Below are positions 561 to 25,627 of a stretch of DNA of 64,000 nt, one piece after another (the stretch's first letter is position 1; each line of letters begins with the position of its first letter). The position numbers and the translations under genes were made by a program. The notes below the pieces were generated by a model. That model made no database searches and was not told the origin of the DNA. It saw nothing but the letters and a program-made list of their open reading frames with translations. Origin of the DNA: Mailhella sp. (GTDB taxonomy: Bacteria; Desulfobacterota; Desulfovibrionia; Desulfovibrionales; Desulfovibrionaceae); NCBI GenBank assembly GCA_017940105.1, contig JAGAZG010000168.1:1136-65135 (forward strand), written 5' to 3'.

Positions 561-624
561 AAGCTGTCATCATCAGCAGGGAAGCGCTACCATCCCTGGA
601 CAGGGCCAGCGCCCTGTTTCGATT
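561..624 (-). ncRNA. Hammerhead ribozyme, type II (copy 1)
   Basis: AUC-GAAA-CAGGGC-GCUG-GCCCUG-UC^-CAGGGA-loop-UCCCUG-CUGAUGA-UGAC: full core, perfect stems I and III, short open stem II. Confidence 0.85.
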
Positions 625-912
625 TTATGCTGGCTCATAGTAATATCTGCTTCTGGGATTATCGGAATCCCAGATTTCGGTGCGGTAAAACTTAACCTGT
701 ACCAAGAGCTTCAAGCCATGCTTTTCGATTTCCACCATTTCGTACACAGGCTCTGTAATTTCTTCCCACGCATGACCATCCTCGAAGCATACCGTCTTGC
801 GAATGGTTTCGTCCTCCACGCCGCCGCTTTCGCGACCGCCACGAGTGCCATAATGCTTGTTGAAAAAGGCCGTCTTCTGGTCAAGATATTCACGCATCGT
901 CAGGGTCGTCAT
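625..912 (-). CDS. Small hypothetical phage protein
   Basis: 95-aa ORF with AAAGGAGG RBS; stop abuts hammerhead 1. Confidence 0.8.
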   Translation of the reverse strand: MTTLTMREYLDQKTAFFNKHYGTRGGRESGGVEDETIRKTVCFEDGHAWEEITEPVYEMVEIEKHGLKLLVQVKFYRTEIWDSDNPRSRYYYEPA

Positions 913-932
913 TTCCGTCGCCTCCTTTGCTA

Positions 933-1121
933 TCAGAACATTGCACGGTAGCTGTTCAGGCTGTTCTCGTACTCCTCGCTGCCGTACTCGTAAGATTCGA
1001 GCCTGTCAGCCGCTACTTGCAGATTCACTTCGTACAATGCGTTTTCCCGTTCAATCTGCTCTGCGTTCTGTCTCATTGCTTCGATTGCTGCCATCATTTC
1101 CATCAACTCGTGGTCTTTCAT
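933..1121 (-). CDS. Small acidic hypothetical protein
   Basis: 62 aa, Glu-rich, GAGGAG RBS, directly downstream of promoter repeat. Confidence 0.75.
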   Translation of the reverse strand: MKDHELMEMMAAIEAMRQNAEQIERENALYEVNLQVAADRLESYEYGSEEYENSLNSYRAMF

Positions 1122-1122
1122 C

Positions 1123-1222
1123 TCAATCGCGCTCCTCTCGTCTGGCTTGTTGTATGATTTATCTTGACTTCATCTTAACACGCTATCTGTATATTGCAAT
1201 AGTTTTTCCGAATTATTTTCAA
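1123..1222 (-). repeat. 100-bp perfect direct repeat (promoter + leader + RBS), copy 1
   Basis: Identical to 1576-1675. Confidence 0.95.
1172..1199 (-). promoter_or_regulatory. Repeated sigma-A-type promoter
   Basis: TTGCAA-16nt-TAAGAT with TG extended -10 and conserved TAGCGTGT spacer. Confidence 0.75.
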
Positions 1223-1244
1223 GAAATTTTACTAGAAGTCTTAC

Positions 1245-1308
1245 GACCTGCCATCGTCAGAGCCGGTAGGTCAGTTCCGGCTGACCAGCCTTTCGGCTGG
1301 TTTCGGCT
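1245..1308 (-). ncRNA. Hammerhead ribozyme, type II (copy 2)
   Basis: GCC-GAAA-CCAGCC-GAAA-GGCUGG-UC^-AGCCGG-AACUGACCUA-CCGGCU-CUGACGA-UGGC-AGGUC; loop I GACCU can pair with 3' AGGUC (pseudoknot). Confidence 0.92.
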
Positions 1309-1574
1309 CATTCTGCTATCGCGAAGGAAACTGTCACAGCCTGATTGGCCAGCAGGAACATCACGTTCGATACGGTCTGCTCATCGCTATGCTTTACGAT
1401 GTCGGTTGCCACACGGTAGATGTTTTCCTTCGTCGGCTCCATGAGATTTACTTCATCCAGCAGCCGGGTGTAGTCCTCGTTGCATCCGCAGGTGTAGAGG
1501 TCATTGTTTACGCATACGTTTCTGACGCTCATGGAATTCCACTTGCGAACCTCAGTAATCATCGGGCTAGTCAT
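1308..1574 (-). CDS. Small hypothetical phage protein
   Basis: 88 aa, RBS within the 100-bp repeat, stop overlaps hammerhead 2. Confidence 0.8.
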   Translation of the reverse strand: MTSPMITEVRKWNSMSVRNVCVNNDLYTCGCNEDYTRLLDEVNLMEPTKENIYRVATDIVKHSDEQTVSNVMFLLANQAVTVSFAIAE

Positions 1575-1575
1575 G

Positions 1576-1675
1576 TCAATCGCGCTCCTCTCGTCTGGCT
1601 TGTTGTATGATTTATCTTGACTTCATCTTAACACGCTATCTGTATATTGCAATAGTTTTTCCGAATTATTTTCAA
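1576..1675 (-). repeat. 100-bp perfect direct repeat, copy 2 (promoter at 1625-1652)
   Basis: Identical to 1123-1222. Confidence 0.95.
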
Positions 1676-1705
1676 AAAATTTCACTAGGAGTGCTGGCAA
1701 GAGGT

Positions 1706-1908
1706 AAATGTCCACGGGCTGAAATTTTGAGAGCCTGTGGGGGCTACTGGTGCGCGTCTGGTTGTTTTTATGACTGTGGCCTAAAGGAGATTATTCAAAA
1801 ATTATTTACACGCCGTAGAAGCGATATTCTCTGAGCCTTTGTGGTTATTATCATTGCGTGCTTCGGAAAAAACTGCGCTATCATCAGCGTTCACCGGGAA
1901 AGCACACA
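1706..1908 (-). repeat. ~200-bp dispersed non-coding element, copy A
   Basis: Shares blocks AATGTCCACGGGC, CCTAAAG, CGATATTCTCTGAGCCTTTGTG, GTTCACCGGGAAAGCACAC with 22826-23027 (inverted) and 28876-29078. Confidence 0.9.
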
Positions 1909-1909
1909 G

Positions 1910-2287
1910 CTAAACTTTGCATACCGTTTCTTTCCCGCATAACAGGCACTTTTCTATCCTGTTCAGACCGAGCGATGCTTTCAAAGCCACATCAATGGCT
2001 TTCATCTCAGCCTCACTGCATTTTCCACAAAACCGTCCCAAACGTCTGCAATCCACAGTATGAATCTGCTCACATATCGCTGTGCTTGGCAGCCCCGTTG
2101 CATAAATTGGAACGTGCGTGATCATCTCACGTTTCGGCTGCGTCGTAAGATACACCATCACTACCGTGCTGTTATGCCGGTTCAAATCGCCAGATACAAT
2201 AATGCCCGGTCTACCAGACCATTGCTCTGAACCAAACGTCTTAAACTTTTCCACGAAATAAATCTCGCCTCTCGAATAACTCATCAT
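1910..2287 (-). CDS. PemK/MazF-family protein
   Basis: RGEIYFV...GSEQ..GRPGIIVS...TAICEQIHTVD..RL motif pattern. Confidence 0.8.
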   Translation of the reverse strand: MMSYSRGEIYFVEKFKTFGSEQWSGRPGIIVSGDLNRHNSTVVMVYLTTQPKREMITHVPIYATGLPSTAICEQIHTVDCRRLGRFCGKCSEAEMKAIDVALKASLGLNRIEKCLLCGKETVCKV

Positions 2288-2784
2288 TTCACCCCCTGTG
2301 CCCACCGCAAAAACGGTGGGATTTTTCTTTTCATTTTTCGGTTGAGCCTGAGCAGAACTTGCGGCAAGGATAGGAACAGTTCCTCGCTGGCTGCTTTCGC
2401 ACTTTTGAAACTGTCTATGACCTTGCCACTTTCATCAATCTGCTCAACAGGTCTTGCTCGTGTTCCGCTTTTACCAATATCTCGGTACACATCACGCATG
2501 GTGCGTATTTCCAAATTGTTCACCCAGTTATCCAGCTTGTCGCCATTCTTGTGAAAATAGCATTCGCCTTTTTTGAGCGGACGCAGGAATGTTCTACCTA
2601 CGAGCGTTTGTACCCGATACTGCCGAGCTTTTCCACCAACACTCAGCGTGACAACTTTATAACCATCGGCAACCCTTTGCTTCATCGACTTTTCCTTGCC
2701 TACACGCTTTATGTCGCCAAGCCTGTTGACCTCATACGTCCCCTCGAAGCCTTTCAATGGGACATACTCATACACGGAAATCAT
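2284..2784 (-). CDS. NUMOD4/HNH homing endonuclease-like protein
   Basis: GFEGTYEVNRLG (NUMOD4), HKNGDKLDNWVNNLE (HNH), C-terminal NUMOD1-like segment. Confidence 0.8.
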   Translation of the reverse strand: MISVYEYVPLKGFEGTYEVNRLGDIKRVGKEKSMKQRVADGYKVVTLSVGGKARQYRVQTLVGRTFLRPLKKGECYFHKNGDKLDNWVNNLEIRTMRDVYRDIGKSGTRARPVEQIDESGKVIDSFKSAKAASEELFLSLPQVLLRLNRKMKRKIPPFLRWAQGVK

Positions 2785-3347
2785 CAGCTTTTCCTGCTAT
2801 AACGACAGCTATCAGACCGCGTATCATAATCGCAGCCTTTGCTGTTTTCCGCATGACGGCATTCATCGCAAAGCATAAGACGATTGCCGCATACCGGACA
2901 AAACGCTTTGAAGCCATCGGTATCAGTATTCCACCGCATTTCAATCTCACTCTGGCAATGCGGGCAGCATTCTGTTACCGTATACGTTCTGCCGTTACCA
3001 ATTTCAGCTTTTTTCGTCAGCCACCGCCACCAGCATGAATCGCAAGCGCCGGTTGTGCATTTATCAGAATCACGGTCAGGCGGACATTCACAACGCTCCA
3101 CGAAAAATTCTGCGAGTTCGCGATTATCCATCCGGCGAATCGTATCGGCATTTATCATGCCTATCGGCTCTGCCGTAACATCCGTGATTTCCTCATCGAA
3201 ATAATCGACTGCTTTGCCGGATGCAATCGTCTTCGCTTCCTCATCAGACTTTGCTTCGACTTCCACTTGCCCATAACTCAATTTGCTGAAACGCACCATG
3301 TACCTCATGCCCGTCACACTTCCTTTTCTTTCTTGCATTTGCGACAA
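2784..3347 (-). CDS. Hypothetical Cys-rich (zinc-ribbon) protein
   Basis: CPHC, CPVC, CDEC motifs; start probably downstream of 3347. Confidence 0.65.
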   Translation of the reverse strand: MSQMQERKGSVTGMRYMVRFSKLSYGQVEVEAKSDEEAKTIASGKAVDYFDEEITDVTAEPIGMINADTIRRMDNRELAEFFVERCECPPDRDSDKCTTGACDSCWWRWLTKKAEIGNGRTYTVTECCPHCQSEIEMRWNTDTDGFKAFCPVCGNRLMLCDECRHAENSKGCDYDTRSDSCRYSRKS

Positions 3348-3586
3348 ACATACCGTTCAATGCACTGCTCGTCACCGTGGCCTGTACCACCAACCATTTT
3401 CTGACCAACTTTCACCCAATCGTGCTGTTCGCAAGGGCAAAGAATTTCTTCAAGCTCGTGGATGCGATTTGCAAGCCGAATTTCTTTTTGCCAAGCACCG
3501 ACGCCGAAATGGATTTTCAAGCTGCTGAACAAAACCAGCAGCAAAATAAATGTCATCCACGGATGCTCCAAGCACCACTCCGTCAT
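3314..3586 (-). CDS. Hypothetical membrane protein
   Basis: N-terminal hydrophobic helix, GGAGG RBS. Confidence 0.6.
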   Translation of the reverse strand: MTEWCLEHPWMTFILLLVLFSSLKIHFGVGAWQKEIRLANRIHELEEILCPCEQHDWVKVGQKMVGGTGHGDEQCIERYVCRKCKKEKEV

Positions 3587-3598
3587 ACCATTCCCTCC

Positions 3599-4012
3599 TT
3601 ACCACGTCCGGCGAAGTCCTGCGGCGGGCGTTGGCGCAATACCAATACTGCCCATCTCGGAGCAGTCCGGCATATTATGGTTATACACCCAGGCCAACGT
3701 CTGCTTGTCTTTAATGTCACGTCTGTCCAAATCCCATTCTTCCGGATAGTCACTTACGAACAGGAACGAATCCATCTGCCCGATGTCCGTATAACTGCGA
3801 ATCGCGGTATAAACGAGAGCGTTATTCTCCTGCTCGAATTCAGCCACACGCTTCTTATCTTCATCACTCAACCAAAAATGTGCACCAAATGGCGGCTCGC
3901 TGATATTCACCAAACCATCCTGCTCAAATTGCCTGATTACTTCCGGGAACAGCTTCAGCATTTTCATCCGCTTGATGGCTTCGGCCTTCTTTTCTTCCAT
4001 GCTGACTTTCAT
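3599..4012 (-). CDS. Hypothetical phage protein
   Basis: 137 aa, RBS, translationally coupled to neighbour. Confidence 0.75.
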   Translation of the reverse strand: MKVSMEEKKAEAIKRMKMLKLFPEVIRQFEQDGLVNISEPPFGAHFWLSDEDKKRVAEFEQENNALVYTAIRSYTDIGQMDSFLFVSDYPEEWDLDRRDIKDKQTLAWVYNHNMPDCSEMGSIGIAPTPAAGLRRTW

Positions 4013-4314
4013 TTTGCATCCTCCTTCAATTCATCCAATTTGCCCGACAAAACCAGCAGGGTCGCCTCAGCAATAATCGTGAACTTCACACGCTCCAAAT
4101 TCTCGGCAACGCTCAGGTCACGTTCGCAATACTTTTTGTCGGAACCGGGGCGTTTCTGCCCTGCTGTCTTCTGCGTCACCATCCTGCAAAGGTCTGCCAC
4201 TGCCAACTTCAACGCCGTAATGTTCGGCTTGACAGCAGAGCCGGGTTGCAGGAATGCCCATGTCGTCAATTCCGTAAACCCCTTCATGCCAGGTTCCTGC
4301 TCCATCGCAATCAT
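4009..4314 (-). CDS. Hypothetical protein
   Basis: ATGA overlaps on both sides, AAGGAGG RBS. Confidence 0.65.
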   Translation of the reverse strand: MIAMEQEPGMKGFTELTTWAFLQPGSAVKPNITALKLAVADLCRMVTQKTAGQKRPGSDKKYCERDLSVAENLERVKFTIIAEATLLVLSGKLDELKEDAK

Positions 4315-4496
4315 TTCGGCAGACCTCCTTTCGGCAATCTTCTCGGCTCATACTTCTTTGCCTCATGACCGATTTTCTGGTACAGGCGAGCCATCGCCAA
4401 CATCGGCGTGTCCTCACAAACCTCAAACTTCCAGCCATCTTTCCAAATGCCGTACTTGGCATTCGGCTCGCCGTGATAATAAATGCTCTGCTTCAT
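4311..4496 (-). CDS. Hypothetical protein
   Basis: 61 aa, GGAGG RBS. Confidence 0.6.
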   Translation of the reverse strand: MKQSIYYHGEPNAKYGIWKDGWKFEVCEDTPMLAMARLYQKIGHEAKKYEPRRLPKGGLPK

Positions 4497-4505
4497 GCCG
4501 CCCTC

Positions 4506-4931
4506 CTACACCAAATACACGCACATGAAATCGTCGAAACTATCGCTATCATGCCAACAGGCTTTATCCGGCATAATCTCGGCTTTCTTGACGATGTTCC
4601 ACAACTCTGCCAAATCCATATCGTAATCCAGCGTATCGACATCAAGGTTGTGATGAAAGCAGTACGCAGTCCACAGGCATTGGAGCTGATCGCAGCAGGT
4701 CTTTGCCTCAAAATCGCATTCACGAATAAACGACTTGATGTACTCCAACTCTGCAATCTTCTCGCCCTGCCGATTGTTCCACAGCTTCACAGCCTCTTTC
4801 TCGTCCCCATAGAACCGCATCTGCCCGCCGCAATACGGACAAGCTACCAGCCCGACATTATCCTCTGTCAACTTCACCATCGGTTTCACGCCACAAAACG
4901 GACACCGCTTCAAACTAACCTGTTCACCCAT
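4506..4931 (-). CDS. Lar-family restriction-alleviation-like zinc-finger protein
   Basis: LKRCPFCG...VACPYCG...AVKLWNNR. Confidence 0.7.
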   Translation of the reverse strand: MGEQVSLKRCPFCGVKPMVKLTEDNVGLVACPYCGGQMRFYGDEKEAVKLWNNRQGEKIAELEYIKSFIRECDFEAKTCCDQLQCLWTAYCFHHNLDVDTLDYDMDLAELWNIVKKAEIMPDKACWHDSDSFDDFMCVYLV

Positions 4932-5544
4932 CAATCTTTCCTCCCATCTTGTAACGCTTGTGCCTCTTATCTCCCGTGCCTTTCTTGTACTCAGCAATCC
5001 AGACCGTCTTGCCGGAACGATACTTGCGATAATGCCCACGCACCGTAAAGACCCCTCTCGGACTGGTATGGTGGCCGCCCTGGGCGCCTCTGGTTGCTGC
5101 CTTTCGCTGCCGCAGGATGTAGGTTGTCTGCTTCTTGGTTGGACTGCCTCCACGGGGCTTGTGGCGCGTCTTCATGGCAAACGGCTCGTCCTGCTTGACC
5201 AACTCCGGCTTTTCGTAAACCATGAACGCCATCAACGTGAAGTAGCCTGACAAGATAGATGCTCGGTCATCCCTCGACAAAATCGTCGTGCATTTACGCA
5301 ACAGCAGATGCTGGGCCTCAAAGTCAATCTCAAACTCCATCTTGCCCAGGCTCTCGTTGCCACTGTACACATAGAGCTTCAGCCACTTGCCATCGCGGAT
5401 GCCCTTTATCCGTATCGCATTATGTGTAAGCACTATCTCAACTGCTTTCAGCGGGCATGGAAACTGGCGAACCTGCTCCTTGTGCTCTTGCAGCCATACG
5501 AACAGCATCTTCACGTCGTCCTGCGTCATCAGCACCCTGTCCAT
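4924..5544 (-). CDS. Hypothetical phage protein
   Basis: 206 aa, C-terminal VRGHYRKYRSGKTVWI motif common in phage proteins. Confidence 0.7.
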   Translation of the reverse strand: MDRVLMTQDDVKMLFVWLQEHKEQVRQFPCPLKAVEIVLTHNAIRIKGIRDGKWLKLYVYSGNESLGKMEFEIDFEAQHLLLRKCTTILSRDDRASILSGYFTLMAFMVYEKPELVKQDEPFAMKTRHKPRGGSPTKKQTTYILRQRKAATRGAQGGHHTSPRGVFTVRGHYRKYRSGKTVWIAEYKKGTGDKRHKRYKMGGKIDG

Positions 5545-5666
5545 CGTCTGCCCTCCTCACAGCAATCCACGAATTCTATGGCAGTCATTCGAGATTGCTA
5601 CGCCAACGGAAAAGCTGGCTACCAGCAACACCACGAAAAATATCAGGACTGCCCACTCCTTCTTAC

Positions 5667-5912
5667 TCATGCGTCCCCGGCCTCCTTCCCGTAATACTTG
5701 CTGGTCTTCGGGACAGGCACGGACGGCCAGGTATACCCCGCTTTTCGATTTTCCAGCGCACGTCTACGGTTAGCTGCCTGAACCTCTGCCTTGTCTTTCT
5801 CATATCTGTCGAGCAGTTCCCGAAGACCAGCGGACAGGTCATGCCGCCCGCTGGTTTCGAGGAACGCCCAGATGTTCTTCAGCAGAAGTCCATCTGCGTT
5901 CTTCAGTCTCAC
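5667..5912 (-). CDS. Hypothetical protein
   Basis: 81 aa, coupled to upstream gene. Confidence 0.55.
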   Translation of the reverse strand: MRLKNADGLLLKNIWAFLETSGRHDLSAGLRELLDRYEKDKAEVQAANRRRALENRKAGYTWPSVPVPKTSKYYGKEAGDA

Positions 5913-6436
5913 GATGCTTTCACCTCCGTTTCCGGGTCATGCCACTTCAGGCCACGAGCCTTGTAGAGCGGAATCCAATGAGCCTCATAAAAATCGTAGC
6001 CAGCGCCATCAATACCGAAGAAACAACCGAACTCCTCGCTCTCAAAAATTCTGAACCCGCATTCGGACATGGCCTCAAGCCCATCTTCCTCCTCAAGCCA
6101 ATGCGTATCGAGCGAATCACTGAACGACCACATCGTTCCCCACATCGGAAGGCGTTCATCAAACTCAATCTCGAAGTCGCCCTTCTTGACCCAGACTTCT
6201 TTGCCGCTGTCCAGCTTGACACGGAACTTGTCTTTGCTCTTGCCCTGCTTGATGACCTCACCGCTGTTCTGCTCGTCATAGACGTACACCCGGTTTCCTG
6301 CGACCGGCAGCGTGATCTCATTCCAGTCATCCGGCTCGGCATCCATCAGTTTCTTAATCATGCCCTGCTGGATTGCATCAAACTCGCGCACCCACTGATG
6401 GGCAGCATCTTTTATCGTCATGCCCTTCTCAATCAT
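5909..6436 (-). CDS. Hypothetical phage protein
   Basis: 175 aa, acidic, ends GIDGAGYDFYEAHWIPLY. Confidence 0.75.
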   Translation of the reverse strand: MIEKGMTIKDAAHQWVREFDAIQQGMIKKLMDAEPDDWNEITLPVAGNRVYVYDEQNSGEVIKQGKSKDKFRVKLDSGKEVWVKKGDFEIEFDERLPMWGTMWSFSDSLDTHWLEEEDGLEAMSECGFRIFESEEFGCFFGIDGAGYDFYEAHWIPLYKARGLKWHDPETEVKAS

Positions 6437-9086: not shown

Positions 9087-9109
9087 TTTCTGTCCTCCTA
9101 GTCGTTTGT

Positions 9110-9145
9110 GCAAATCCAGCAAACCGTTGAGATGGTTGGAAACGC
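9110..9145. other. Putative recombination site, left inversion junction
   Basis: Core AACCGTTGAGAT (9122-9133) is the exact reverse complement of 25863-25874 and lies at the strand switch. Confidence 0.7.
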
Positions 9146-9606: not shown

Positions 9607-9628
9607 TGTGATGAAAGGGGTCAAAATC

Positions 9629-17082: not shown

Positions 17083-17314
17083 TGTTATTGACCTGACAAA
17101 AAAAATGATGGAGGAAAGCAGCTTCGGAATTGTCTCTTGCAAGCACGACAGCGGAATAGCTGTGGCGGTCAAGGGCAACCCTCCGCAGATTGCTTTCGCG
17201 ATTGCCTTGCTCATAAAGAATCTGCACGAGGAAGGCAAAGTACCGCTGAAGGAATTCGGCAGCATGATAAACGATGCTATGGCCATGATGCTTGAGGAGG
17301 GAGTCAAGATATGA
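17072..17314 (+). CDS. Hypothetical protein
   Basis: 80 aa, coupled in operon. Confidence 0.6.
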   Translation: MENNVIDLTKKMMEESSFGIVSCKHDSGIAVAVKGNPPQIAFAIALLIKNLHEEGKVPLKEFGSMINDAMAMMLEEGVKI

Positions 17315-17721: not shown

Positions 17722-20078
17722 GCTGGCAGCCGCAGACCATGATGCTGTCGGAGTTCTATGAAAAGCTCCGTATTCCCAGCCGTTCCACGGAGACGATGGC
17801 TGAGTACCTTGCCCTGAAAAAGTCCGAGCAGGACGACAAGAAGGACATTGGCGGGTTCGTGGCGGGCAGCCTCTCCGGCGCCCGCCGCAAAGCCGGGGCG
17901 GTTACGGGGCGTGACCTCATCACGCTGGACTTCGACAACATCCCGCCGGGAGGCACGGAGGATGTGCTGCGTCGTGTGGAGGGACTTGGGTGCGGGTACT
18001 GCATCTACTCCACACGCAAGCACTCCCCCACCACTCCCCGGCTCCGCATCCTGCTGCCATTCGACCGTTCAGCATCGGCGGACGAGTACGAGCCAGCCGC
18101 CCGCTACATGGCGGCGGCCATTGGCATGGAGTTTGCCGACCCGACCACGTTCGAGGCATCACGCCTGATGTACTGGCCAAGCTGCTGCGCGGACGGCGAA
18201 TACGTCTTCACTTATGAGGATAAGCCCATGCTGTCTGTGGACGGTCTTCTCGATGCCGTCACGGAGAAGTACGGCGACTGGAAGGACGTGACGAACTGGC
18301 CACAGGTTCCCGGCTCGGAAAACGCCTATCGCAAGCTCGCGACAAAGCAATCAGATCCCGTGACAAAGGCTGGCATCATCGGGGCGTTCTGCCGGACTTA
18401 TGACATCTACACCGCAATGGAATCATTTCTCCCCGGCATCTATGCACCGGTGGACAATATGCCTGGACGGTATACCTATCTCGGCGGCAGTACCACGGGC
18501 GGGGCCGTTATTTATGACAATGGACTGTTCCTTTACTCGCACCACTCCACTGACCCTTGCAGCGGAAGGCTGGTCAATGCGTTCGACCTCGTGAGGCTTC
18601 ACAAGTTCGGGGACGCAGATGATGATGCCGGGGCAAACACCCCGGCGAACCGCCTCCCATCCTATCAGATGATGTGCGAGCTTGCCGTTGCGGATGCCAA
18701 GGTATCGAGGCAGCTTGCCAAGGAACGGGCAGAATCAGCAGTCAGCGACTTCGGCCAGCTTGCCACCCACGAGGATGACGAAGGCAGCCTGGACTGGACA
18801 ACGGAGCTGGAACTGAACAGCCAGACCGGAGCCATCAAGGCGACCATCGACAACATTTGGCTGATACTGGAAAACGACCCGAACCTGCGTGGCAAGTTCG
18901 CATTGAACGAGTTCGCAGGGCGCGGGGAAATCCTCGGCGAATTGCCGTGGAGTCCATTTGCGGGCCGCAGGGCGTGGGCTGACAATGACAATCAGGGCCT
19001 GTACTGGTATTTCGAGAAGGTTTATAAGATTACAGGCAACGGGAAGATTGACGGCGCCCTGTCGCTCCACAGTGAGAAGCATAAGTTCAACGACGTAAAG
19101 AACTATCTCGGCGGGCTGCAATGGGATGGCGTTCCGAGGCTGGACACGCTTTTGGTGGATTACCTCGGCGCGGCGAACAGCAACTACGTGCGGGCCGTTA
19201 CACGAAAGGCGTTCACGGCGGCAGTAGCACGGGCCATGACCCCCGGCTGCAAGTATGACACGATGCTGATTCTTTCTGGGCCGCAGGGCCTCGGCAAGTC
19301 CACGTTCCTTGACCGCATGAGCCGTGGGTGGTTCAACGATGGCATCCGCACCTTTGAGGGCAAGGAAGCCAGCGAGCTGTTGCAGGGTGTATGGCTCATT
19401 GAGATACAGGAACTGGATGCTTTCCGCAAGACGGATGTGTCCCGTATCAAGCAGTTCCTGAGCCTTCGGTATGACCGCTTCAGGGCTGCCTATGGGCGGC
19501 ACGTCAAGGACATCCCCAGGTGCTGCGTGTTTTTCGGAACGACGAACACAACCGAGTTCCTGCGGGACAGGACAGGCAATCGTCGGTTCTGGCCCGTGGA
19601 TGTCGGGGTATTCCAGCGGAAGAAGGACATCTGGAAACAGCTCAATCAGGAAATCGACCAGATTTGGGCAGAGGCGGTCATGCGGTGGCGCATCGGCGAA
19701 AGCCTCCACCTTATCGGCGATGTGGAAAATGAAGCAAGGGTCGTGCAGGAAGAACACAGAGAAGCCGGAAACCTCGAAGGACTGATAGCGCAGTACCTTG
19801 AAAGGCCGGTGCCAGAAGACTGGCAGAAATGGTCTTTGGAAAAGCGCAAAATGTTCCTGAACGGTGAAGGAACCGCAGAAAACCTCGTTCCCCGTGACAG
19901 GGTATGTGCCTTGGAGATATGGTGCGAGGTACTGAACGGCCAGATGAAAGACCTGTCGTACACAACGACCACAGAGATAAACGACATTTTAAGGTCGATG
20001 CCAATGTGGGAAAAGACGTCGAATGGACTGCGGTTTGGATACTGCGGATACCAGCGGGGATTTCGCAGAAAGCATTGA
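17667..20078 (+). CDS. Primase-helicase, VirE/virulence-associated E family
   Basis: N-terminal prim-pol (TLDFD, YSTRKH, PRLR); Walker A GPQGLGKST; TGNRRFWP. Confidence 0.92.
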   Translation: MQHDRKIILSVGSNRRSVSWQPQTMMLSEFYEKLRIPSRSTETMAEYLALKKSEQDDKKDIGGFVAGSLSGARRKAGAVTGRDLITLDFDNIPPGGTEDVLRRVEGLGCGYCIYSTRKHSPTTPRLRILLPFDRSASADEYEPAARYMAAAIGMEFADPTTFEASRLMYWPSCCADGEYVFTYEDKPMLSVDGLLDAVTEKYGDWKDVTNWPQVPGSENAYRKLATKQSDPVTKAGIIGAFCRTYDIYTAMESFLPGIYAPVDNMPGRYTYLGGSTTGGAVIYDNGLFLYSHHSTDPCSGRLVNAFDLVRLHKFGDADDDAGANTPANRLPSYQMMCELAVADAKVSRQLAKERAESAVSDFGQLATHEDDEGSLDWTTELELNSQTGAIKATIDNIWLILENDPNLRGKFALNEFAGRGEILGELPWSPFAGRRAWADNDNQGLYWYFEKVYKITGNGKIDGALSLHSEKHKFNDVKNYLGGLQWDGVPRLDTLLVDYLGAANSNYVRAVTRKAFTAAVARAMTPGCKYDTMLILSGPQGLGKSTFLDRMSRGWFNDGIRTFEGKEASELLQGVWLIEIQELDAFRKTDVSRIKQFLSLRYDRFRAAYGRHVKDIPRCCVFFGTTNTTEFLRDRTGNRRFWPVDVGVFQRKKDIWKQLNQEIDQIWAEAVMRWRIGESLHLIGDVENEARVVQEEHREAGNLEGLIAQYLERPVPEDWQKWSLEKRKMFLNGEGTAENLVPRDRVCALEIWCEVLNGQMKDLSYTTTTEINDILRSMPMWEKTSNGLRFGYCGYQRGFRRKH

Positions 20079-20118
20079 CGAGATGTTTCCAAAGGGGCGA
20101 AACTTCGACTTTGCAGAA

Positions 20119-20372
20119 CAATTTAGGCACGAAAGTCTAAGTTTAGGCACGAAATTCAACCCATTGTTTCGGGCTAGTTTGTTATCAAGTTTCAGGGCTT
20201 GTTTCGGGGTTGTTTCGGCGTGAAGCCTTGATATATCTATACTTATAGTTATATTGAAACATTGAAACATTTAATCTTAATAGAATAGAAGAATAGGTGT
20301 TTTAGAGAATATAGGTAAATAATGTATATGCCTAATGTACCTAATATACCTATATTGAGTAATATAAGGATT
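20119..20372 (+). repeat. AT-rich element (candidate replication origin), copy 1
   Basis: TTTAGGCACGAAA twice, GAAACATTGAAACATTTAATCTTAATAGAATAG; inverted homolog at 48873-49130. Confidence 0.75.
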
Positions 20373-20600
20373 TGGAGGTGCTGTTTCGCCATGATTCCGG
20401 TTGAAAAATACGTCGCTGAGGCCGACAAAATCGAGTGGCTTGAAGGGCTGCTGAAGTCGCACGGCTCGATGCTGCGCGAGACGATTTTCGAGGAGGGTGC
20501 GAAGTTGGGCTTTTCGCGGCAGAGCATAAAAAACGCCCGCCGCTTCGAGGGGTCACGCATCGTGGCCCGTGAGGGCTTTTGGATTTGGCGAGGTTAGGCT

Positions 20601-20924
20601 ATGCTTGAGAAACAGATTGAACGTCGCCTGGTCGATGGCGTGAAGAAGCTCGGCGGGATGTGCATGAAATTCGTCAGCCCCGGTACGCCGGGTGTCCCTG
20701 ACCGAATCATCGTGACCGCCACGGGCAGAGTGATTTTTGCGGAACTGAAGACCGAGACTGGCCGCCTGACGAAATTGCAGCGGCACACGGTCGAGCAGTT
20801 GAAGAAACGCGGGGCTGACGTGAGGGTTGTCAAAGGCTCTGATGAGGTCAAAGCCCTGCTGGCTGAGATTGAGAACGATGATTGCATACGGAGACTGAAG
20901 GCGGTGATGGACAATGAAATTTAA
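20601..20924 (+). CDS. VRR-NUC domain nuclease
   Basis: EKQIE...KFVSPG..GVPDRI...FAELK...Q. Confidence 0.9.
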   Translation: MLEKQIERRLVDGVKKLGGMCMKFVSPGTPGVPDRIIVTATGRVIFAELKTETGRLTKLQRHTVEQLKKRGADVRVVKGSDEVKALLAEIENDDCIRRLKAVMDNEI

Positions 20925-22293
20925 GCCGTACCCCTACCAGCAGTTCTGCATCGACTATGTGATCCGCAATGTTGCTGTTGGTTTGCTGCTGGATATGGGA
21001 TTGGGCAAGACGGTCATCACGCTGACCGCCCTCCATGACCTCCGTTACAATCGGTGGGAGGTATCGAAGCCGCTCATCATAGCACCGAAGAAAGTGGCCG
21101 AGGCCACCTGGACAGCTGAGGCTAAGAAATGGGAGCACCTGCGGATGATGCGGGTTGTTCCCGTCCTTGGCACGGTGAGCCAGCGATTGAAAGCCCTTGC
21201 CACTCCCGCCGATGTATATGTCATCAATCGCGAAAATACGCAGTGGCTGGTCGAGCATTTCAAGAACTCATGGCCCTTTGACATGGTGGTGCTGGATGAA
21301 AGCTCGTCTTTCAAGAACAGCCAGAGCAAGCGGTTCAAGGCGCTCCGCCTTGTCCGCTCCCGCATCCGGCGCATCGTGGAACTGACGGGTACGCCAGCAA
21401 GCAATGGACTGGAAGACCTGTGGGCGCAGATTTTTCTGCTGGACGGGGGTCAGCGGCTCGGCAAGACTCTTGGTGCTTACCGCGACAGGTACTTCGTCCC
21501 CGGCAGGAGAAACCAGACGACGATATTCAATTATGAGCCGAAGGACGGCAGCTTCGAGATGATTAAGCGGGCCATCAGCGACATCTGCATCAGCATGAAG
21601 GCCAGCGACTACATCAGCTTGCCGGACATCGTTTACAACGAGGTTCCCGTGGCTCTCGATGCCAAGGCGAAGAAAGCCTATGAGCAGTTGGAGCGTGAGC
21701 TGCTTTTGGAAGTGAACGACGAGACGATTACCGCTGGCAGTGCTGGCGTCCTGACTGGCAAGCTGTTGCAGCTTTGCAACGGTGCTGTTTACAGCGAGGA
21801 TAGGAACGTCGTGCCAGTCCATGACTGCAAGTTGGATGCCTTCATGGAACTGGTCGAGCAGTTGAACGGGCAGCACGCTCTCGTGTTCTACGACTTCAAG
21901 CATGACCGTGACCGGCTGCTTGATGCGCTGGCAAAGACGAAGCTGCGGGTCAGGGTCTACTCGCAAGCGCAGGACGAGGCAGACTGGAATGCCGGGTTAA
22001 TCGACATCCTTCTCGCCCACCCTGCCAGTTGCGGTTATGGCTTGAATTTGCAGCAGGGAGGCCATCATGCCGTTTGGTTTGGGTTGACTTGGAGCCTTGA
22101 GCAGTATGAGCAAGCAAACAAGCGTCTGCACCGTCAAGGGCAGGAGCATCCAGTGGTCGTTCATCATCTAGTCGTGCAGGGCGGGATGGATGAATCTGTC
22201 ATGGAGGCTCTGAAGAACAAGGGAGATATGCAGGAAGCCCTGCTTGCCGCCCTCAAAGCCCGCATAAGCAGATTGTGCAGTAAATGCAGGTAG
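20914..22293 (+). CDS. SNF2-family helicase
   Basis: DMGLGKT, VLDESS, LTGTP, GLNLQ, QANKRLHRQGQ. Confidence 0.93.
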   Translation: MKFKPYPYQQFCIDYVIRNVAVGLLLDMGLGKTVITLTALHDLRYNRWEVSKPLIIAPKKVAEATWTAEAKKWEHLRMMRVVPVLGTVSQRLKALATPADVYVINRENTQWLVEHFKNSWPFDMVVLDESSSFKNSQSKRFKALRLVRSRIRRIVELTGTPASNGLEDLWAQIFLLDGGQRLGKTLGAYRDRYFVPGRRNQTTIFNYEPKDGSFEMIKRAISDICISMKASDYISLPDIVYNEVPVALDAKAKKAYEQLERELLLEVNDETITAGSAGVLTGKLLQLCNGAVYSEDRNVVPVHDCKLDAFMELVEQLNGQHALVFYDFKHDRDRLLDALAKTKLRVRVYSQAQDEADWNAGLIDILLAHPASCGYGLNLQQGGHHAVWFGLTWSLEQYEQANKRLHRQGQEHPVVVHHLVVQGGMDESVMEALKNKGDMQEALLAALKARISRLCSKCR

Positions 22294-22302
22294 AAAAGGA
22301 GG

Positions 22303-22785
22303 ATGCCCATGCAGAAGGAAGAAATTGCTGAAATAGCCCGTATTGCGGCGGTTGAGGCGTTGGCCAAGCGGGATAGCATCGTCAAGGAGGAGCTTGATGC
22401 CAGATACCATGATGTGAAGCTCTTGATGAAGAATTACCGCAAGCTGAAAGCCCACTATGCGCACGTCTCGCCGGAAGCGTTGGAGGTCAACGCCATCTGC
22501 TCGTTGAAGCGGAAGACTGGCTTGATGATGAGCCATGTGGACAGGATGCTGTCAGCATACAAGGCCCTTTGCGAGAGTGCCGTGGAACGTCACGAGGCGA
22601 TGCGATGGGATGCTTTGTATATGCGGTATATTTCTGACGAGCGGCTGACCATTGACGACATCGCCGCCCGCCTGGGCGACGTTGACCGCCGCACGTTCTA
22701 TCGGTATATTGACAGGGCTTTCGAGGATATGGCGGTGCTGCTGTTCGGCATCGAAGCCATCGGGACTTGGAAGCCGAAGAAATAG
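22303..22785 (+). CDS. ArpU/RinA-like late transcriptional regulator
   Basis: C-terminal sigma-4-like HTH (LYMRY...IAARL..DRRTFYR); last gene of replication operon. Confidence 0.65.
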   Translation: MPMQKEEIAEIARIAAVEALAKRDSIVKEELDARYHDVKLLMKNYRKLKAHYAHVSPEALEVNAICSLKRKTGLMMSHVDRMLSAYKALCESAVERHEAMRWDALYMRYISDERLTIDDIAARLGDVDRRTFYRYIDRAFEDMAVLLFGIEAIGTWKPKK

Positions 22786-22787
22786 TT

Positions 22788-22817
22788 GCCGGGGGCTTTT
22801 CAGCCCTCGGCATTTTT
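22788..22817 (+). terminator. Intrinsic terminator
   Basis: GCCGGGGGCT-TTTC-AGCCCTCGGC followed by ATTTTT. Confidence 0.65.
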
Positions 22818-22825
22818 CTGCTTTC

Positions 22826-23027
22826 GTGTGCTTTCCCGGTGAACATAGCCGCCCTCTCCTTGCTTTTCCGAAGCCCGCAATCCCTTACCACACAAAGGCT
22901 CAGAGAATATCGCTCCTACGGCGCAAAAATAATTTTCGTATATTCTTCTTTAGGCTATCGCAGGAAAACTGACCAGAGGGAAACCAGAAGGCATACAGAG
23001 AGCAGAAAATTTCGGCCCGTGGACATT
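22826..23027 (+). repeat. ~200-bp dispersed non-coding element, copy B
   Basis: Reverse-complement homolog of 1706-1908 and 28876-29078. Confidence 0.9.
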
Positions 23028-23070
23028 CCGACTTTCAGTAGAATTCTTGGAAAATAATTCGTAAACATGA

Positions 23071-23098
23071 TTGACTTATACGGTTAGCGTGTTAAGAT
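23071..23098 (+). promoter_or_regulatory. Repeated promoter
   Basis: TTGACT-tatacggttagcgtgt-TAAGAT. Confidence 0.75.
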
Positions 23099-23140
23099 GA
23101 AGACAAGATAAATCATAACACCTGAACAGAACGAAAGGGG

Positions 23141-23338
23141 TTGGACGACATGACGAAGCGGGAAAGATTTGCGAAAGCACTGTGGGAAACCTTCAGGTAT
23201 GAGCTGCGCAAGGATGACAATATAAGATTTGTTCGCGGGTATGCTGATGAGAATATAGCTGATGTGGTTATCACACGGGCGGACGGATGCAAGGCAACCG
23301 TGGATGCTTATGACATCCAGCTTGGCTGCTTCCAGTGA
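23141..23338 (+). CDS. Small hypothetical protein
   Basis: AAAGGGG RBS; lies between promoter repeat and hammerhead 3. Confidence 0.7.
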   Translation: MDDMTKRERFAKALWETFRYELRKDDNIRFVRGYADENIADVVITRADGCKATVDAYDIQLGCFQ

Positions 23339-23342
23339 TGAA

Positions 23343-23406
23343 AGCCGAAACCAGCCGAAAGGCTGGTCAGCCGGAATTGACCTACCGGCTCTGATGTTGG
23401 CAGGTT
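23343..23406 (+). ncRNA. Hammerhead ribozyme, type II (copy 3; CUGAUGU core variant)
   Basis: Same stems as copies 2 and 4, but A9 replaced by U. Confidence 0.85.
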
Positions 23407-23424
23407 GATAGCAGAAAGGGGCAG

Positions 23425-23724
23425 ATGAAAATGTTCGTAAATACGTTTTTCCGTGTGGAGCCATCGTACAACAGGAAGGGCGAGCTGGTGACGACGAAGG
23501 TGCATGGCTATGACTTGTCGGCAAGTGGTGTGAGGATGCTTGACCTTGACGGCTACGCCCCGATTTTGGAAAAGTTCGGCGGCTGGTTCAACAAGAAGTC
23601 CCGCTGCATTTCCATTCCCGCAGAGGTGTCCCGCCTGGAACTCGCAAACTGGCTGGAATTCTACTATGGCGGCGAGGGCGATAATCCGAATGGCCAGCTG
23701 AATGCAGTGTATGTTGGAATTTAA
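23425..23724 (+). CDS. Small hypothetical protein
   Basis: 99 aa, AAAGGGG RBS just after the ribozyme. Confidence 0.75.
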   Translation: MKMFVNTFFRVEPSYNRKGELVTTKVHGYDLSASGVRMLDLDGYAPILEKFGGWFNKKSRCISIPAEVSRLELANWLEFYYGGEGDNPNGQLNAVYVGI

Positions 23725-23757
23725 GTAGAATTTCTTGAAAAATTTTCGTAAACATGA

Positions 23758-23785
23758 TTGACTTATACGGTTAGCGTGTTAAGAT
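23758..23785 (+). promoter_or_regulatory. Repeated promoter
   Basis: Identical core to 23071-23098. Confidence 0.75.
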
Positions 23786-23837
23786 GAAGACAAGATAAAT
23801 CACAACCACCTGAACGGAACGAAGGGAGACGATTGAG

Positions 23838-24008
23838 ATGTCGGCAAACATGAAGCAGTTCGTAGAGTATTGTGAAGCGTATGATCAGACTGGAAGCAAG
23901 AAATTTCGGGATGAGGCTATTCGGATTTACTGGATGCTGACGGGTACGACGCTCGCAGCAGATGAATTCGAGGACAGGTACTTGGATTTGATGCACGAAA
24001 ATTGGTAA
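23838..24008 (+). CDS. Small acidic protein (56 aa, not in ORF track)
   Basis: AAGGGAG RBS; MSANMKQFVEYCEAYDQ...DEFEDRYLDLMHENW; stop abuts hammerhead 4. Confidence 0.65.
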   Translation: MSANMKQFVEYCEAYDQTGSKKFRDEAIRIYWMLTGTTLAADEFEDRYLDLMHENW

Positions 24009-24071
24009 GCCGAAACCAGCCGAAAGGCTGGTCAGCCGGAACTGACCTACCGGCTCTGATGATGGCAGGTT
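24008..24071 (+). ncRNA. Hammerhead ribozyme, type II (copy 4)
   Basis: Canonical CUGAUGA/GAAA core, GUC at 24031-24033, perfect stems I and III. Confidence 0.92.
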
Positions 24072-24097
24072 AAGCAGAACGAAGGGAGCTGGCCGAA

Positions 24098-24349
24098 ATG
24101 ACGAAGATGGAATATGCGATGAAGCAGAACAGCCGTGAGATTGAGCAGGTTGAGAAGAAAATCATGGACAGCCTTGAGGCGATCAAGCGCAGCACCGAGC
24201 GGGCCTTGGCAGCAGAGAACAAAGCCTTCTCGACGGACATTCCGAGCATTGCTTGCTATGCGGCAGAACTCAAGATGGCGCAGGAAAAGTTGGAGCTTTT
24301 GTATCAGCATCGTCAGACGCTTGAAATGCTGGCAGCCGATGAAGATTGA
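24098..24349 (+). CDS. Small coiled-coil hypothetical protein
   Basis: 83 aa, AAGGGAG RBS after the ribozyme. Confidence 0.7.
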   Translation: MTKMEYAMKQNSREIEQVEKKIMDSLEAIKRSTERALAAENKAFSTDIPSIACYAAELKMAQEKLELLYQHRQTLEMLAADED

Positions 24350-24365
24350 TGAGAGGGCGGCAGAG

Positions 24366-24659
24366 ATGAAGAACGTAAGCGAATTTGACATCAGTCTGAA
24401 GAAGTTGTCCTGGGACAAGCTGTTCGACAGCGAGGAGGAATTGGTTGAGGCTATGATGGGCTGTCCGGTAGAACGGACTGCCAGCCGACATGGACTTGTG
24501 CCGAAGGGTTATGAGTATATCGCCGGGTTCCAGCGGTACTATGCCAAGAACCGCTGCCTGACCGACAAGCAGATGACCCAGCTCAAAAGGCTGGCGAAGT
24601 CTGTGTATGTCGGCATCAAGGGCATGAACGTGGGTGGCTACATCGCAATGTGCTGGTAA
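24366..24659 (+). CDS. Hypothetical protein
   Basis: GAGAGGG RBS before MKNVSEF; followed by terminator at 24663-24687. Confidence 0.65.
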   Translation: MKNVSEFDISLKKLSWDKLFDSEEELVEAMMGCPVERTASRHGLVPKGYEYIAGFQRYYAKNRCLTDKQMTQLKRLAKSVYVGIKGMNVGGYIAMCW

Positions 24660-24740
24660 GCTGGCGGGCCTTGTTGCCCGCCTTTTTCTGTGTCTTGCGC
24701 CTGTGACGCTATCGTGTTATGATGGTAGCATAGAAAGGAT

Positions 24741-24959
24741 GTGGTCGGAATGGCACAGAGCAAGGCGCACATGGCGGCGACCAGCCGTTATGAGCAGAAG
24801 GCATACGACAAGCTGTTGATACGTCTGCGCAAGGATGCAGATGTGAACGGCAGCACTGTCCGCGCCCATGCAGAGTCGCGCGGTGAAAGTATGCAGGGCT
24901 TTGTAGTCAGGGCCATCACGGAGACGATGGCACGAGACAGAGCCGGGATAACAGAATGA
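24741..24959 (+). CDS. Ribbon-helix-helix-like DNA-binding protein
   Basis: KAYDKLLIRLRK...AHAESRGESMQGFVVRAITETM; own promoter TTGCGC-17-TATGAT (24695-24723) and terminator 24962-24989. Confidence 0.7.
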   Translation: MVGMAQSKAHMAATSRYEQKAYDKLLIRLRKDADVNGSTVRAHAESRGESMQGFVVRAITETMARDRAGITE

Positions 24960-25230
24960 GCAAAGACCCGCAGAGATGCGGGTCTTTTTGTGTCCGCGTT
25001 TTCCCCAAAATGGCATCGCGCATCGCATAGCGTCAGCCCTCTCAAATCAAGCGCCCAGAGGCGCATCGCTTCTCAGAGCTTCTCCGCAGCCCTCGAATAC
25101 AATCCCCTTCGCAAGCTGCGTAAATCCGCTCTCAGCGAGTACCAGAGGCTTGCATTTTGGTGATTCAGTAGTCCTGGGTGGTCAGTTGCGACTGTGAGTA
25201 AAATTTCTTGAAAACTTTTCCGAAAAACTA

Positions 25231-25258
25231 TTGCAATATACAGATAGCGTGTTAAGAT
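25231..25258 (+). promoter_or_regulatory. Repeated promoter
   Basis: TTGCAA-tatacagatagcgtgt-TAAGAT, same core as 1172-1199. Confidence 0.75.
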
Positions 25259-25310
25259 GAAGACAAGATAAAGAACACCACTTGAACAGAACGAAAGGGG
25301 GTCAGACGAT

Positions 25311-25562
25311 ATGGAAAACGCAACGGAAAAGGCCGCCCGGCTCCAACGCGGGGACAGCTTGTACTGGTACTGCATCATGACCGTCTACCACGACGATGGC
25401 AAGATAGAACGCAGCATCGTTCGGGATGACAGGACAGGCGCACCGTTCATCGTCAAGTCCTATGAGAAGCCGTTGGACGAATGTTACAGCCGGAAAGCGG
25501 CGGCAGTTTACTACACCTACTGCCACGGGTACAAGGAAGCGTTGGCCTGTTTGGCCCGCTGA
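25311..25562 (+). CDS. Small hypothetical protein
   Basis: 83 aa between promoter repeat and hammerhead 5. Confidence 0.7.
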   Translation: MENATEKAARLQRGDSLYWYCIMTVYHDDGKIERSIVRDDRTGAPFIVKSYEKPLDECYSRKAAAVYYTYCHGYKEALACLAR

Positions 25563-25563
25563 T

Positions 25564-25627
25564 AGCCGAAACAGCCCAGGCGGGCTGTCAGCCGGAGATG
25601 ACCTACCCGCTCTAATGATGGCAGGTC
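25564..25627 (+). ncRNA. Hammerhead ribozyme, type II (copy 5; CUAAUGA variant, probably impaired)
   Basis: GAAA-CAGCCC-AGGC-GGGCUG-UC; C-C mismatch in stem I; G5A. Confidence 0.75.

What the first reader, a model, noticed from the sequence alone, without database searches (positions are those of the whole stretch)
561..25627. Five type II hammerhead ribozymes, each at the stop codon of a small promoter-driven gene
Seen: copies at 561-624(-), 1245-1308(-), 23343-23406(+), 24008-24071(+) and 25564-25627(+), each starting 0-5 nt after a stop codon. Order is GAAA-stem III-GUC-stem I-CUGANGA with an extra U before stem II. Copy 1 has completely different stems I and III and copy 5 a different stem III, yet pairing is kept (covariation). 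Four copies have a loop-I GACCU / 3' AGGU(C/U) pseudoknot. Known: type II hammerheads occur in Bacillota and phage-associated DNA, but their role is unresolved. Inference: self-cleavage punctuates early transcripts. The upstream mRNA is left with a 3' hairpin and cyclic phosphate, and the downstream cistron with a 5'-OH end, giving protein-free control of mRNA stability or termination.
Basis: partly seen in the sequence, partly recalled or inferred. Interest (0 to 1): 0.85.

Follow-up and report, generated by a model that had tools for sequence, protein, structure and literature searches.

The report
Hammerhead ribozymes punctuating phage gene cassettes
A temperate rumen phage carries five self-cutting hammerhead RNA motifs, each flush against the stop codon of a small accessory gene; this layout has been known since 2011 and likely cuts early messages into single-gene pieces, although two of the five have core changes predicted to cripple them and cutting was not shown here.

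Summary
All five motifs are real type II hammerheads (Rfam RF02276, 35-44 bits; 5 descriptor hits against 0.01 by chance), each 1 nt inside to 4 nt after a stop codon. Copies 1, 2 and 4 have intact cores. Copy 3 carries A9U and copy 5 G5A, so probably only three cut well. They lie in a ~68-kb temperate myophage whose flank points to a Selenomonas-family host, in cassettes of repeated promoter, small gene(s) and hammerhead. Related strains swap genes at those repeats.

Clustered prophage hammerheads, the pseudoknot and the mRNA-processing idea were published by Perreault 2011, and in-vivo cleavage of prophage type II hammerheads by Olzog 2021. This scan also noted the layout on other DNA (e1-5919926 and others).

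My survey found a stop codon flush with 152 of 208 related motifs and a ribosome site right after 139 of 200. Best reading: protein-free punctuation leaving both products hairpin-capped (inferred). Only copies 3 and 4 are followed directly by a cistron. Copies 2 and 5 precede new promoters. Copy 1 precedes a covarying ~140-nt RNA with no Rfam match, which sits behind twister ribozymes elsewhere. Verdict: new member of a known kind.

The parts
561..624 (-). Type II hammerhead copy 1; intact core, divergent stems (48-53% identity to the others); predicted cut 3' of C599; flush with the stop of the 95-aa gene
   Evidence: 1 change in 67 nt against the relative in L008, while the adjacent gene has 26 in 288
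1245..1308 (-). Type II hammerhead copy 2; intact core; predicted cut 3' of C1283; first A shared with the TGA of the 88-aa gene; followed at once by a promoter repeat
23343..23406 (+). Type II hammerhead copy 3; A9U at 23397, predicted weakened; between the 62-aa and 99-aa genes
   Evidence: A read at 23397 in contigs of two other runs (may partly be other copies)
24008..24071 (+). Type II hammerhead copy 4; intact core; predicted cut 3' of C24033; between the 56-aa and 83-aa genes
25564..25627 (+). Type II hammerhead copy 5; G5A at 25614 and a stem I mismatch, predicted inactive; followed by a promoter at 25676
   Evidence: the same slot holds an intact standard copy in the relative L012:3363
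1625..1652 (-). Repeated early promoter with a shared operator-like spacer
1172..1199 (-). Repeated early promoter, directly downstream of copy 2
   Evidence: absent with its 62-aa gene in contigs of X5 and X7 (joint 914->1245)
23071..23098 (+). Repeated early promoter (extended -10 type)
23758..23785 (+). Repeated early promoter (extended -10 type)
25231..25258 (+). Repeated early promoter
625..912 (-). 95-aa accessory gene, no family; ends at copy 1
933..1121 (-). 62-aa accessory gene, no family over cut-off
1308..1574 (-). 88-aa accessory gene; ends in copy 2; 35%-identical homologues in two unrelated records also end at hammerheads
23150..23338 (+). 62-aa accessory gene before copy 3
23425..23724 (+). 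99-aa gene after copy 3; a 231-nt contig of an RNA run lies inside it
23838..24008 (+). 56-aa accessory gene; ends in copy 4
24098..24659 (+). 83-aa and 97-aa genes after copy 4, closed by a terminator-like hairpin at 24663-24682
24750..24959 (+). 69-aa probable ribbon-helix-helix repressor; its own promoter carries the operator-like motif; candidate regulator of the repeated promoters (inferred)
   Evidence: fold search not significant (E 3.4-9.6), 10 of 14 rows are Arc/PutA/AmrZ/HicB/antitoxin-type proteins
25311..25562 (+). 83-aa gene before copy 5; homologues in related phages have no hammerhead and end at the att-like site instead
398..539 (-). Conserved structured RNA 'Y' (~140 nt) about 20 nt downstream of copy 1; no Rfam match; no ribosome-site-led gene before the att site here
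308..335 (-). Prophage end (att half site); flanks differ between strains

Best explanation
These are type II hammerhead ribozyme motifs that likely cut the phage's early, multi-promoter read-through transcripts into gene-sized pieces, with copies 1, 2 and 4 predicted to be active and copies 3 and 5 predicted to be weakened or dead. Each cassette is a strong repeated promoter, one or two small accessory genes and a hammerhead that fills the space from the stop codon onward; no intrinsic terminator lies at these positions. Cleavage after GUC would leave the upstream mRNA ending about 26 nt past its stop in a 7-bp hairpin with a 2',3'-cyclic phosphate. The downstream RNA would start with a 5'-OH and stem I plus the pseudoknot (inferred from the type II topology). 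That would make each gene's mRNA ends independent of its neighbour. This matters because the genes are exchanged between strains at the promoter and hammerhead repeats (shown in contigs; homologous recombination inferred). At copy 1 the cut would set the 5' end of the structured RNA Y.
For: Rfam and descriptor matches. Covariation of stems and pseudoknot; a pseudoknot of >=4 bp in 180 of 208 family members against a mean of 100 with swapped tails. A stop of an ORF >=45 aa ends within -8..+3 nt of the motif in 152 of 208 independent contexts, against 1-9 per 12-nt bin from -200 to -21. Stop triplets there close a long ORF in 152 of 247 cases, against 52 of 928 further upstream; antisense control 9 of 208; ribosome site plus start within 45 nt in 139 of 200, against 146 of 854 control windows. 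In a set found independently by Rfam in relatives of the bin, 18 of 20 sit within -6..+2 of a stop (ORF >=30 aa; counted by eye). A twister P5 ribozyme, also right after a stop codon, fills the slot before Y in related prophages, so cleavage rather than this particular fold seems to be what is kept. No terminator-like site lies at the slots. Gene swaps between promoter and hammerhead occur in the relative L012 and in contigs of runs X5, X6 and X7. Copy 1 is better conserved than its gene. Published: clustered prophage hammerheads cleave in vitro and in E. coli (PMC3088659); three D. vulgaris type II hammerheads near phage genes cleave in vivo (PMC8782182).
Against: No cleavage or RNA-end data for this phage: the RNA run gave contigs only, none over a hammerhead. 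Two of five copies carry core changes, so the cut is dispensable at those slots in this isolate. Homologues of the gene before copy 5 occur without any hammerhead in L050-L056, L059, L063-L065. Simple folding gives only 0.44-0.85 mean pair probability for stem I in the intact copies and puts the hammerhead fold 1.7-3.7 kcal/mol above the minimum (pseudoknot not modelled). Strain joints come from contigs across repeats and some may be assembly chimeras. No accessory gene could be assigned a function.
Confidence: 0.65

Rival explanations
1. Translation-gated cleavage: a ribosome terminating at the flush stop codon would cover the stem II strand and the GAAA core, so the ribozyme would fold and cut only when the upstream gene is not being translated. 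This would couple mRNA fate or downstream expression to translation.
For: Median distance from stop to first paired base is 1 nt; <=4 nt in 131 of 181 hammerheads with a stop within 100 nt (of 208), against 5 of 21 (of 39) terminator hairpins in the same loci, median 12 nt. TAG, which overlaps the motif's AG, makes up 43 of 152 flush stops against 49 of 341 other stops.
Against: Genome compaction and deletion bias alone predict flush placement. Cleavage can be co-transcriptional and faster than a ribosome arrives (general knowledge). The terminator control is small. About a quarter of motifs have no flush stop (56 of 208).
Confidence: 0.15
2. The copies act mainly as DNA repeats: with the promoter repeats they serve as homology anchors for exchanging accessory genes, and self-cleavage is incidental or decaying.
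For: Copies 2-4 are 94-97% identical beside unrelated genes. Strain breakpoints fall at promoter and hammerhead ends. The copy-5 slot holds different hammerhead sequences in different strains. Two copies have core changes.
Against: Copy 1 shares only about 50% identity with the others yet keeps all stems and the core. The family covaries strongly. A 108-aa gene and its 49%-identical homologue both end at hammerheads with different stems. A twister can fill the slot.
Confidence: 0.1
3. Tandem cuts (copy 2 then copy 1; copy 3 then copy 4) excise unit RNAs with 5'-OH and cyclic-phosphate ends that are ligated into circles, or the main product is a released non-coding RNA such as Y.
For: The end chemistry fits ligation (general knowledge). 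Tandem pairs exist on both arms. Y follows copy 1 with no gene before the att site; RAGATH-8 directly follows a family member in L007.
Against: Perreault et al. looked for spliced or circular products and found none (PMC3088659, data not shown). A new promoter lies between each pair. Copy 3 is predicted weak. In four of the other Y contexts (L343, L350, L356, L357) a ribosome site and gene follow Y.
Confidence: 0.1

Closest known systems
Clustered hammerhead ribozymes flanking single genes or short gene blocks in prophages (Perreault et al. 2011, PMC3088659; Rfam RF02276)
   Same: Type II permutation, loop I / 3' tail pseudoknot, several copies around small variable phage genes, proposed processing into single-gene mRNAs, and some copies possibly non-functional.
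   Different: The paper's main text has no 'stop codon' (0 occurrences) and one 'promoter'; flush placement, the repeated promoters and strain-level cassette swapping are not in the parts I read. Figures and supplements were not seen and may show them.
Type II hammerheads near phage genes of Desulfovibrio vulgaris, active in vivo (Olzog et al. 2021, PMC8782182)
   Same: Same Rfam family and phage context; two lie close together.
   Different: Cleavage was measured there and not here; no biological role was established there either.
Extra nucleotide between A9 and G10.1 in the CChMVd plus hammerhead (De la Pena and Flores 2001, as reviewed in PMC3705267)
   Same: Same insertion position; the review says U there raised trans-cleavage 3-4-fold.
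   Different: Viroid context with natural A; here U is fixed across a large phage/bacterial type II subfamily.
Twister P5 ribozymes in the same gene contexts (association reviewed in PMC6765202)
   Same: Occupy equivalent slots; here twisters precede RNA Y in three related sequences.
   Different: Unrelated fold.
Synthetic ribozyme insulators (RiboJ type; recalled, seen only in a search listing) and promoter-cassette shuffling in T4-type phages (recalled, not searched)
   Same: A self-cutting part makes expression independent of upstream sequence; repeated promoters bound exchangeable genes.
   Different: Analogies only; insulation was not tested for these natural copies.

Membership tests
Hammerhead ribozyme type II (RF02276) | Three stems around the core with the open end in stem II (order GAAA, stem III, NUH, stem I, CUGANGA) | tested here: met
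   all five
Hammerhead ribozyme type II (RF02276) | Conserved core C3 U4 G5 A6 N7 G8 A9, G12 A13 A14, A15.1-U16.1, H17 | tested here: met
   met in copies 1, 2 and 4; not met in copy 3 (A9U) or copy 5 (G5A). G5A is the standard inactive control and A9 changes cut activity 10-100-fold per PMC4075628 (part 1 of 2 read)
Hammerhead ribozyme type II (RF02276) | Score at or above the Rfam gathering cut-off (37 bits) | tested here: met
   copies 4, 1 and 2 (44.4, 40.4, 38.8); copies 5 and 3 just under (35.9, 35.3)
Hammerhead ribozyme type II (RF02276) | Loop I / 3' tail pseudoknot as tertiary contact | tested here: met
   5 bp in copies 2-5, about 3 bp in copy 1; family-wide 180 of 208 against a mean of 100 in tail swaps
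Hammerhead ribozyme type II (RF02276) | Self-cleavage giving 2',3'-cyclic phosphate and 5'-OH | not testable with these tools
   only contigs were available from the one RNA run
Clustered prophage hammerheads (Perreault 2011) | Several copies flanking single genes or short gene blocks in a prophage | tested here: met
   integrase, CI/Cro-like genes, head, tail and lysis genes; att ends
Clustered prophage hammerheads (Perreault 2011) | Flanked genes are not constant | tested here: met
   genes differ between slots and between strains
Anti-defence gene cassette (ardA/Acr-like cargo) | Cargo genes with known anti-restriction or anti-CRISPR families | tested here: inconclusive
   no PHROGs or Pfam family over cut-off for the cassette genes; homologue and atlas searches uninformative; NCBIfam and PADLOC not searched
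Known Rfam RNA families (for element Y) | Match to any Rfam 15 model, including RAGATH motifs and other ribozyme classes | tested here: not met
   no hit over Y at E<=5 in the window, at gathering in L343, L344, L349, L350, or at E<=1 in L344, L356, L357, L360

The most novel reading that the evidence does not exclude
The stop-codon-flush hammerheads are natural, translation-sensed insulators of shuffled phage cassettes: a terminating ribosome blocks the fold, so the cut reports whether the upstream gene is being read. Copy 1 (a twister in related prophages) serves to release the 5' end of a new class of ~140-nt structured RNA, Y, whose conserved loops suggest a ligand-binding, antitermination or catalytic role.
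Probability: 0.2. Interest if true: 0.7.

Novelty: new member of a known kind. Interest (0 to 1): 0.35.

Why it matters
[quoted passage not shown] This phage does not answer it, but it offers natural controls: intact and core-mutant hammerheads in the same slot in different strains, genes with and without a hammerhead, and hammerhead-to-twister swaps before the same RNA. The family-wide stop-ribozyme-ribosome-site spacing gives a sharp testable rule. RNA Y is the only part without a known counterpart in Rfam.

Tried and rejected
Expression and cleavage: one RNA run (X20, small share, contigs only) gave a 231-nt contig inside the 99-aa gene and a 158-nt contig in cro, none over a hammerhead, and nothing on 1-3200. 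This is no evidence either way.

The promoter pattern found only two viral records and none in metagenomes. Functions of the cassette genes were not found. The fold search of the 69-aa protein had no match at E<=0.001.

Single-sequence folding of 290-560 showed no unusual stability (z 0.48); Y's structure rests on covariation among 7 sequences. The Y model found no new members beyond G249 and G293 in 150 genomes (two marginal hits at 24-25 bits not followed) and only two chance-level extra hits in 45 sources. The conserved element behind hammerheads in L088-type loci is therefore not shown to be Y.

The 25 'unstructured' pattern matches were not a clean negative control (8 of 25 also flush) and are not used.

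The idea that the host is the sulfate reducer of the bin (dsrA present) was rejected. The right flank matched 74 of 261 genomes of the Selenomonas family and 0 of 200 of the bin's family.

No laid contig showed the inverted junction in the listed joints (4 joints not shown). Weinberg 2015 (PMC4509812) is not held. 'RAGATH' does not occur in the main text of PMC5737381.

Searches for a paper on stop-codon adjacency (2 unrelated papers) and on ribozymes in accessory/early genes found none; the library lacks most subscription journals.
Full report
OBSERVATION. The five motifs are present at the stated coordinates. Rfam Hammerhead_II matches all five at 35.3-44.4 bits, three above the gathering score of 37. 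A pairing-aware descriptor finds five in the window and 0.01 on average in 100 simulated windows, and no perfect-core hit on the other 246 contigs of the bin. Each has the order stem II strand, GAAA, stem III, GUC, stem I, CUGANGA, extra U, stem II strand, tail. On 18 aligned family members (15 distinct), 94.6% of cells pair and 12 of 21 pairs show two-sided changes, with 0 of 500 shuffles as high. Copies 2-4 are 94-97% identical, copy 5 is 75-77% identical to them, and copy 1 about 50%. Copy 3 has A9U and copy 5 has G5A with a stem I mismatch. PMC4075628 (part 1 of 2 read) uses G5A as the inactive control and cites 10-100-fold loss for A9 changes. The extra U has a precedent that raised activity (PMC3705267, passages).

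SETTING. The window is most of a temperate myophage, with replication genes, CI/Cro-like genes, a large serine integrase, lysis genes, a diversity-generating retroelement, tail sheath, head and terminase. It ends at 308, where strains show different flanks, and at about window+68,430 on the contig. The bin is a sulfate reducer, but the right flank matches 74 of 261 genomes in the family of a Selenomonas genome and 0 of 200 in the bin's family. The host is therefore likely of the Selenomonas family (Bacillota) and the contig likely mis-binned. Runs holding the DNA are bovine, sheep and gut metagenomes.

ANATOMY. The hammerheads lie in two accessory regions built of a repeated promoter (1652 and 1199 on the minus strand; 23071, 23758 and 25231 on the plus strand), small genes without family and the ribozyme. 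Copies 2-5 end the first gene after a promoter; copy 1 ends the second. After the motif come genes (copies 3, 4), a new promoter (copies 2, 5) or a non-coding element and the att site (copy 1). No terminator-like site occurs at these slots. The promoters share an operator-like motif that also overlaps the promoter of the 69-aa gene at 24750. Its model matches ribbon-helix-helix proteins only weakly (10 of 14 rows, none significant), so common regulation is an inference.

STRAIN COMPARISON. In a relative about 94% identical in core genes, the stretch from the first right-arm promoter to the 97-aa gene is replaced by a different 108-aa gene, a hammerhead and a second copy of the non-coding element. 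An extra gene is inserted after the third promoter, and the copy-5 slot holds an intact standard hammerhead. Contigs from other runs replace the gene between 23117 and 23343, join copy 4 directly to the 97-aa gene, or drop the promoter-plus-gene unit between 914 and 1245; these joints cross repeats and some may be chimeric. The 108-aa gene has a 49%-identical homologue that also ends at a hammerhead with different stems. The 88-aa gene has two 35%-identical homologues that do the same, though those loci were fetched because they hold hammerheads. Against this, the gene before copy 5 has homologues with no hammerhead in nine related loci.

FAMILY SURVEY. From 264 loci the script took 273 structured and 30 unstructured matches. 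Removing duplicates left 244 structured; dropping those with shared or too-short upstream sequence left 208. An ORF of at least 45 codons ends within -8..+3 nt in 152 of 208, against 1-9 per 12-nt bin further upstream. Controls: 152 of 247 nearby stop triplets close such an ORF against 52 of 928 distant ones; 9 of 208 on the antisense strand. A ribosome site with a start follows within 45 nt in 139 of 200, against 146 of 854 control windows; both hold in 103 of 200. The stop-to-first-pair distance is <=4 nt in 131 of 181, median 1, against 5 of 21 terminators, median 12. ORFs were called mechanically. Eighteen of 20 hammerheads found by Rfam in relatives of the bin are also flush (counted by eye). 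Flush placement is thus a general property of type II hammerheads in phage-like DNA, not special to this phage.

ELEMENT Y. The RNA at 398-539 has seven distinct known sequences; 15 of 32 predicted pairs covary (92.4% paired, 0 of 500 shuffles; the structure was derived from the same alignment). It has no Rfam match. Two of the seven follow hammerheads, three follow twister P5 ribozymes and two follow no detected ribozyme. I had noticed the element before consulting earlier notes (note 26); the twister lead came from e1-5919926 and I confirmed it. In this window no ribosome-site-led gene lies between Y and the att site, so it is not simply a leader here. It differs from the relative at 3 of 142 positions, against 26 of 288 in the adjacent gene.

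MECHANISM. Shown: the motifs, their structure conservation, their position and the gene swaps. Inferred: transcription from the repeated promoters, cleavage after GUC, and hairpin-capped ends on both products that decouple each gene's mRNA from its neighbours. I put this at 0.65, translation-gated cleavage at 0.15, a mainly DNA-level role as recombination anchors at 0.10, and circle or non-coding RNA release at 0.10.

WHAT IS KNOWN. Perreault et al. 2011 (PMC3088659; parts 2-3 of 8 and passages read) report type II hammerheads, the pseudoknot, clusters flanking single variable genes in prophages, cleavage in vitro and in E. coli, and the same processing hypothesis. Olzog et al. 2021 (PMC8782182; passages and part 1 of section 7) show in-vivo cleavage of three phage-associated type II copies. 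The 2019 review PMC6765202 (passages) calls the bacterial role largely elusive. I found no paper stating stop-codon adjacency, but figures and supplements were not seen. This scan has recorded the same layout on other DNA several times.

VERDICT. Real, a new member of a known kind, with a useful spacing rule, natural active/inactive pairs and one undescribed associated RNA. Interest 0.35.

Noticed in passing
window ~9107-9145 and 25844-25875; L062/L351 versus L058: Inverted att-like half sites sharing an ATCTCA core bound a ~16.7-kb block of replication genes. In the window's orientation the block and the left arm lack a consensus promoter. Two 97%-identical relatives diverge exactly at that core, one joining the promoter to the left arm. 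Likely an integrase-driven inversion switch; also noted earlier by the scan (e1-5919925, e1-7972733). Searches showed no paper on it.
   Followed up: partly
window 398-539 (-): Structured RNA Y with no Rfam match; conserved GAAAGG and CGAAGNCAU loops and two CUUUUC tracts, one of which could pair with the GAAAGG loop (untested).
   Followed up: yes
window 32445-35505 (-): Diversity-generating retroelement: reverse transcriptase, RT-2 RNA (102 bits), Avd-like gene, and 134-nt repeats at 33969 and 34632 that are 85% identical.
   Followed up: no
window 24750-24959 and promoters at 1199, 1652, 23071, 23758, 24704, 25231, 28843, contig window+64033: Shared operator-like motif in the promoter spacers, also seen in a distant relative (L352), with a probable ribbon-helix-helix repressor beside them; resembles autoregulated accessory-gene regulons (recalled).
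   Followed up: partly
window 22863-23035, 28869-29041, 1744-1843; contig window+64050-64300: A second, ~170-290-nt repeat precedes several promoter repeats; role not examined.
   Followed up: no
L088, L107, L112, L114, L121, L140, L230, L234, L283, L289, L301, L302 downstream of the hammerhead: Another conserved non-coding element follows hammerheads in many gut-phage loci. The six of these scanned (L088, L107, L114, L121, L230, L234) had no Rfam hit on it at E<=0.01, and it is not clearly related to Y. RAGATH-8 follows one in L007.
   Followed up: partly
L089-L094 (one 112-kb viral contig): Seven distinct extra-U type II hammerhead matches with divergent stems within about 9 kb of one early region.
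   Followed up: no
contig C145 ends: The prophage is integrated in a macro-domain gene (L008 continues into it). In this assembly the left flank is different DNA, and the contig appears mis-binned into a sulfate-reducer genome.
   Followed up: partly
window 62232-62304 (-); 60739-62163 (-); 1913-2287 (-): A tRNA gene, a Dam-like/GNAT-like fusion protein and a MazF-like gene without an examined partner.
   Followed up: no
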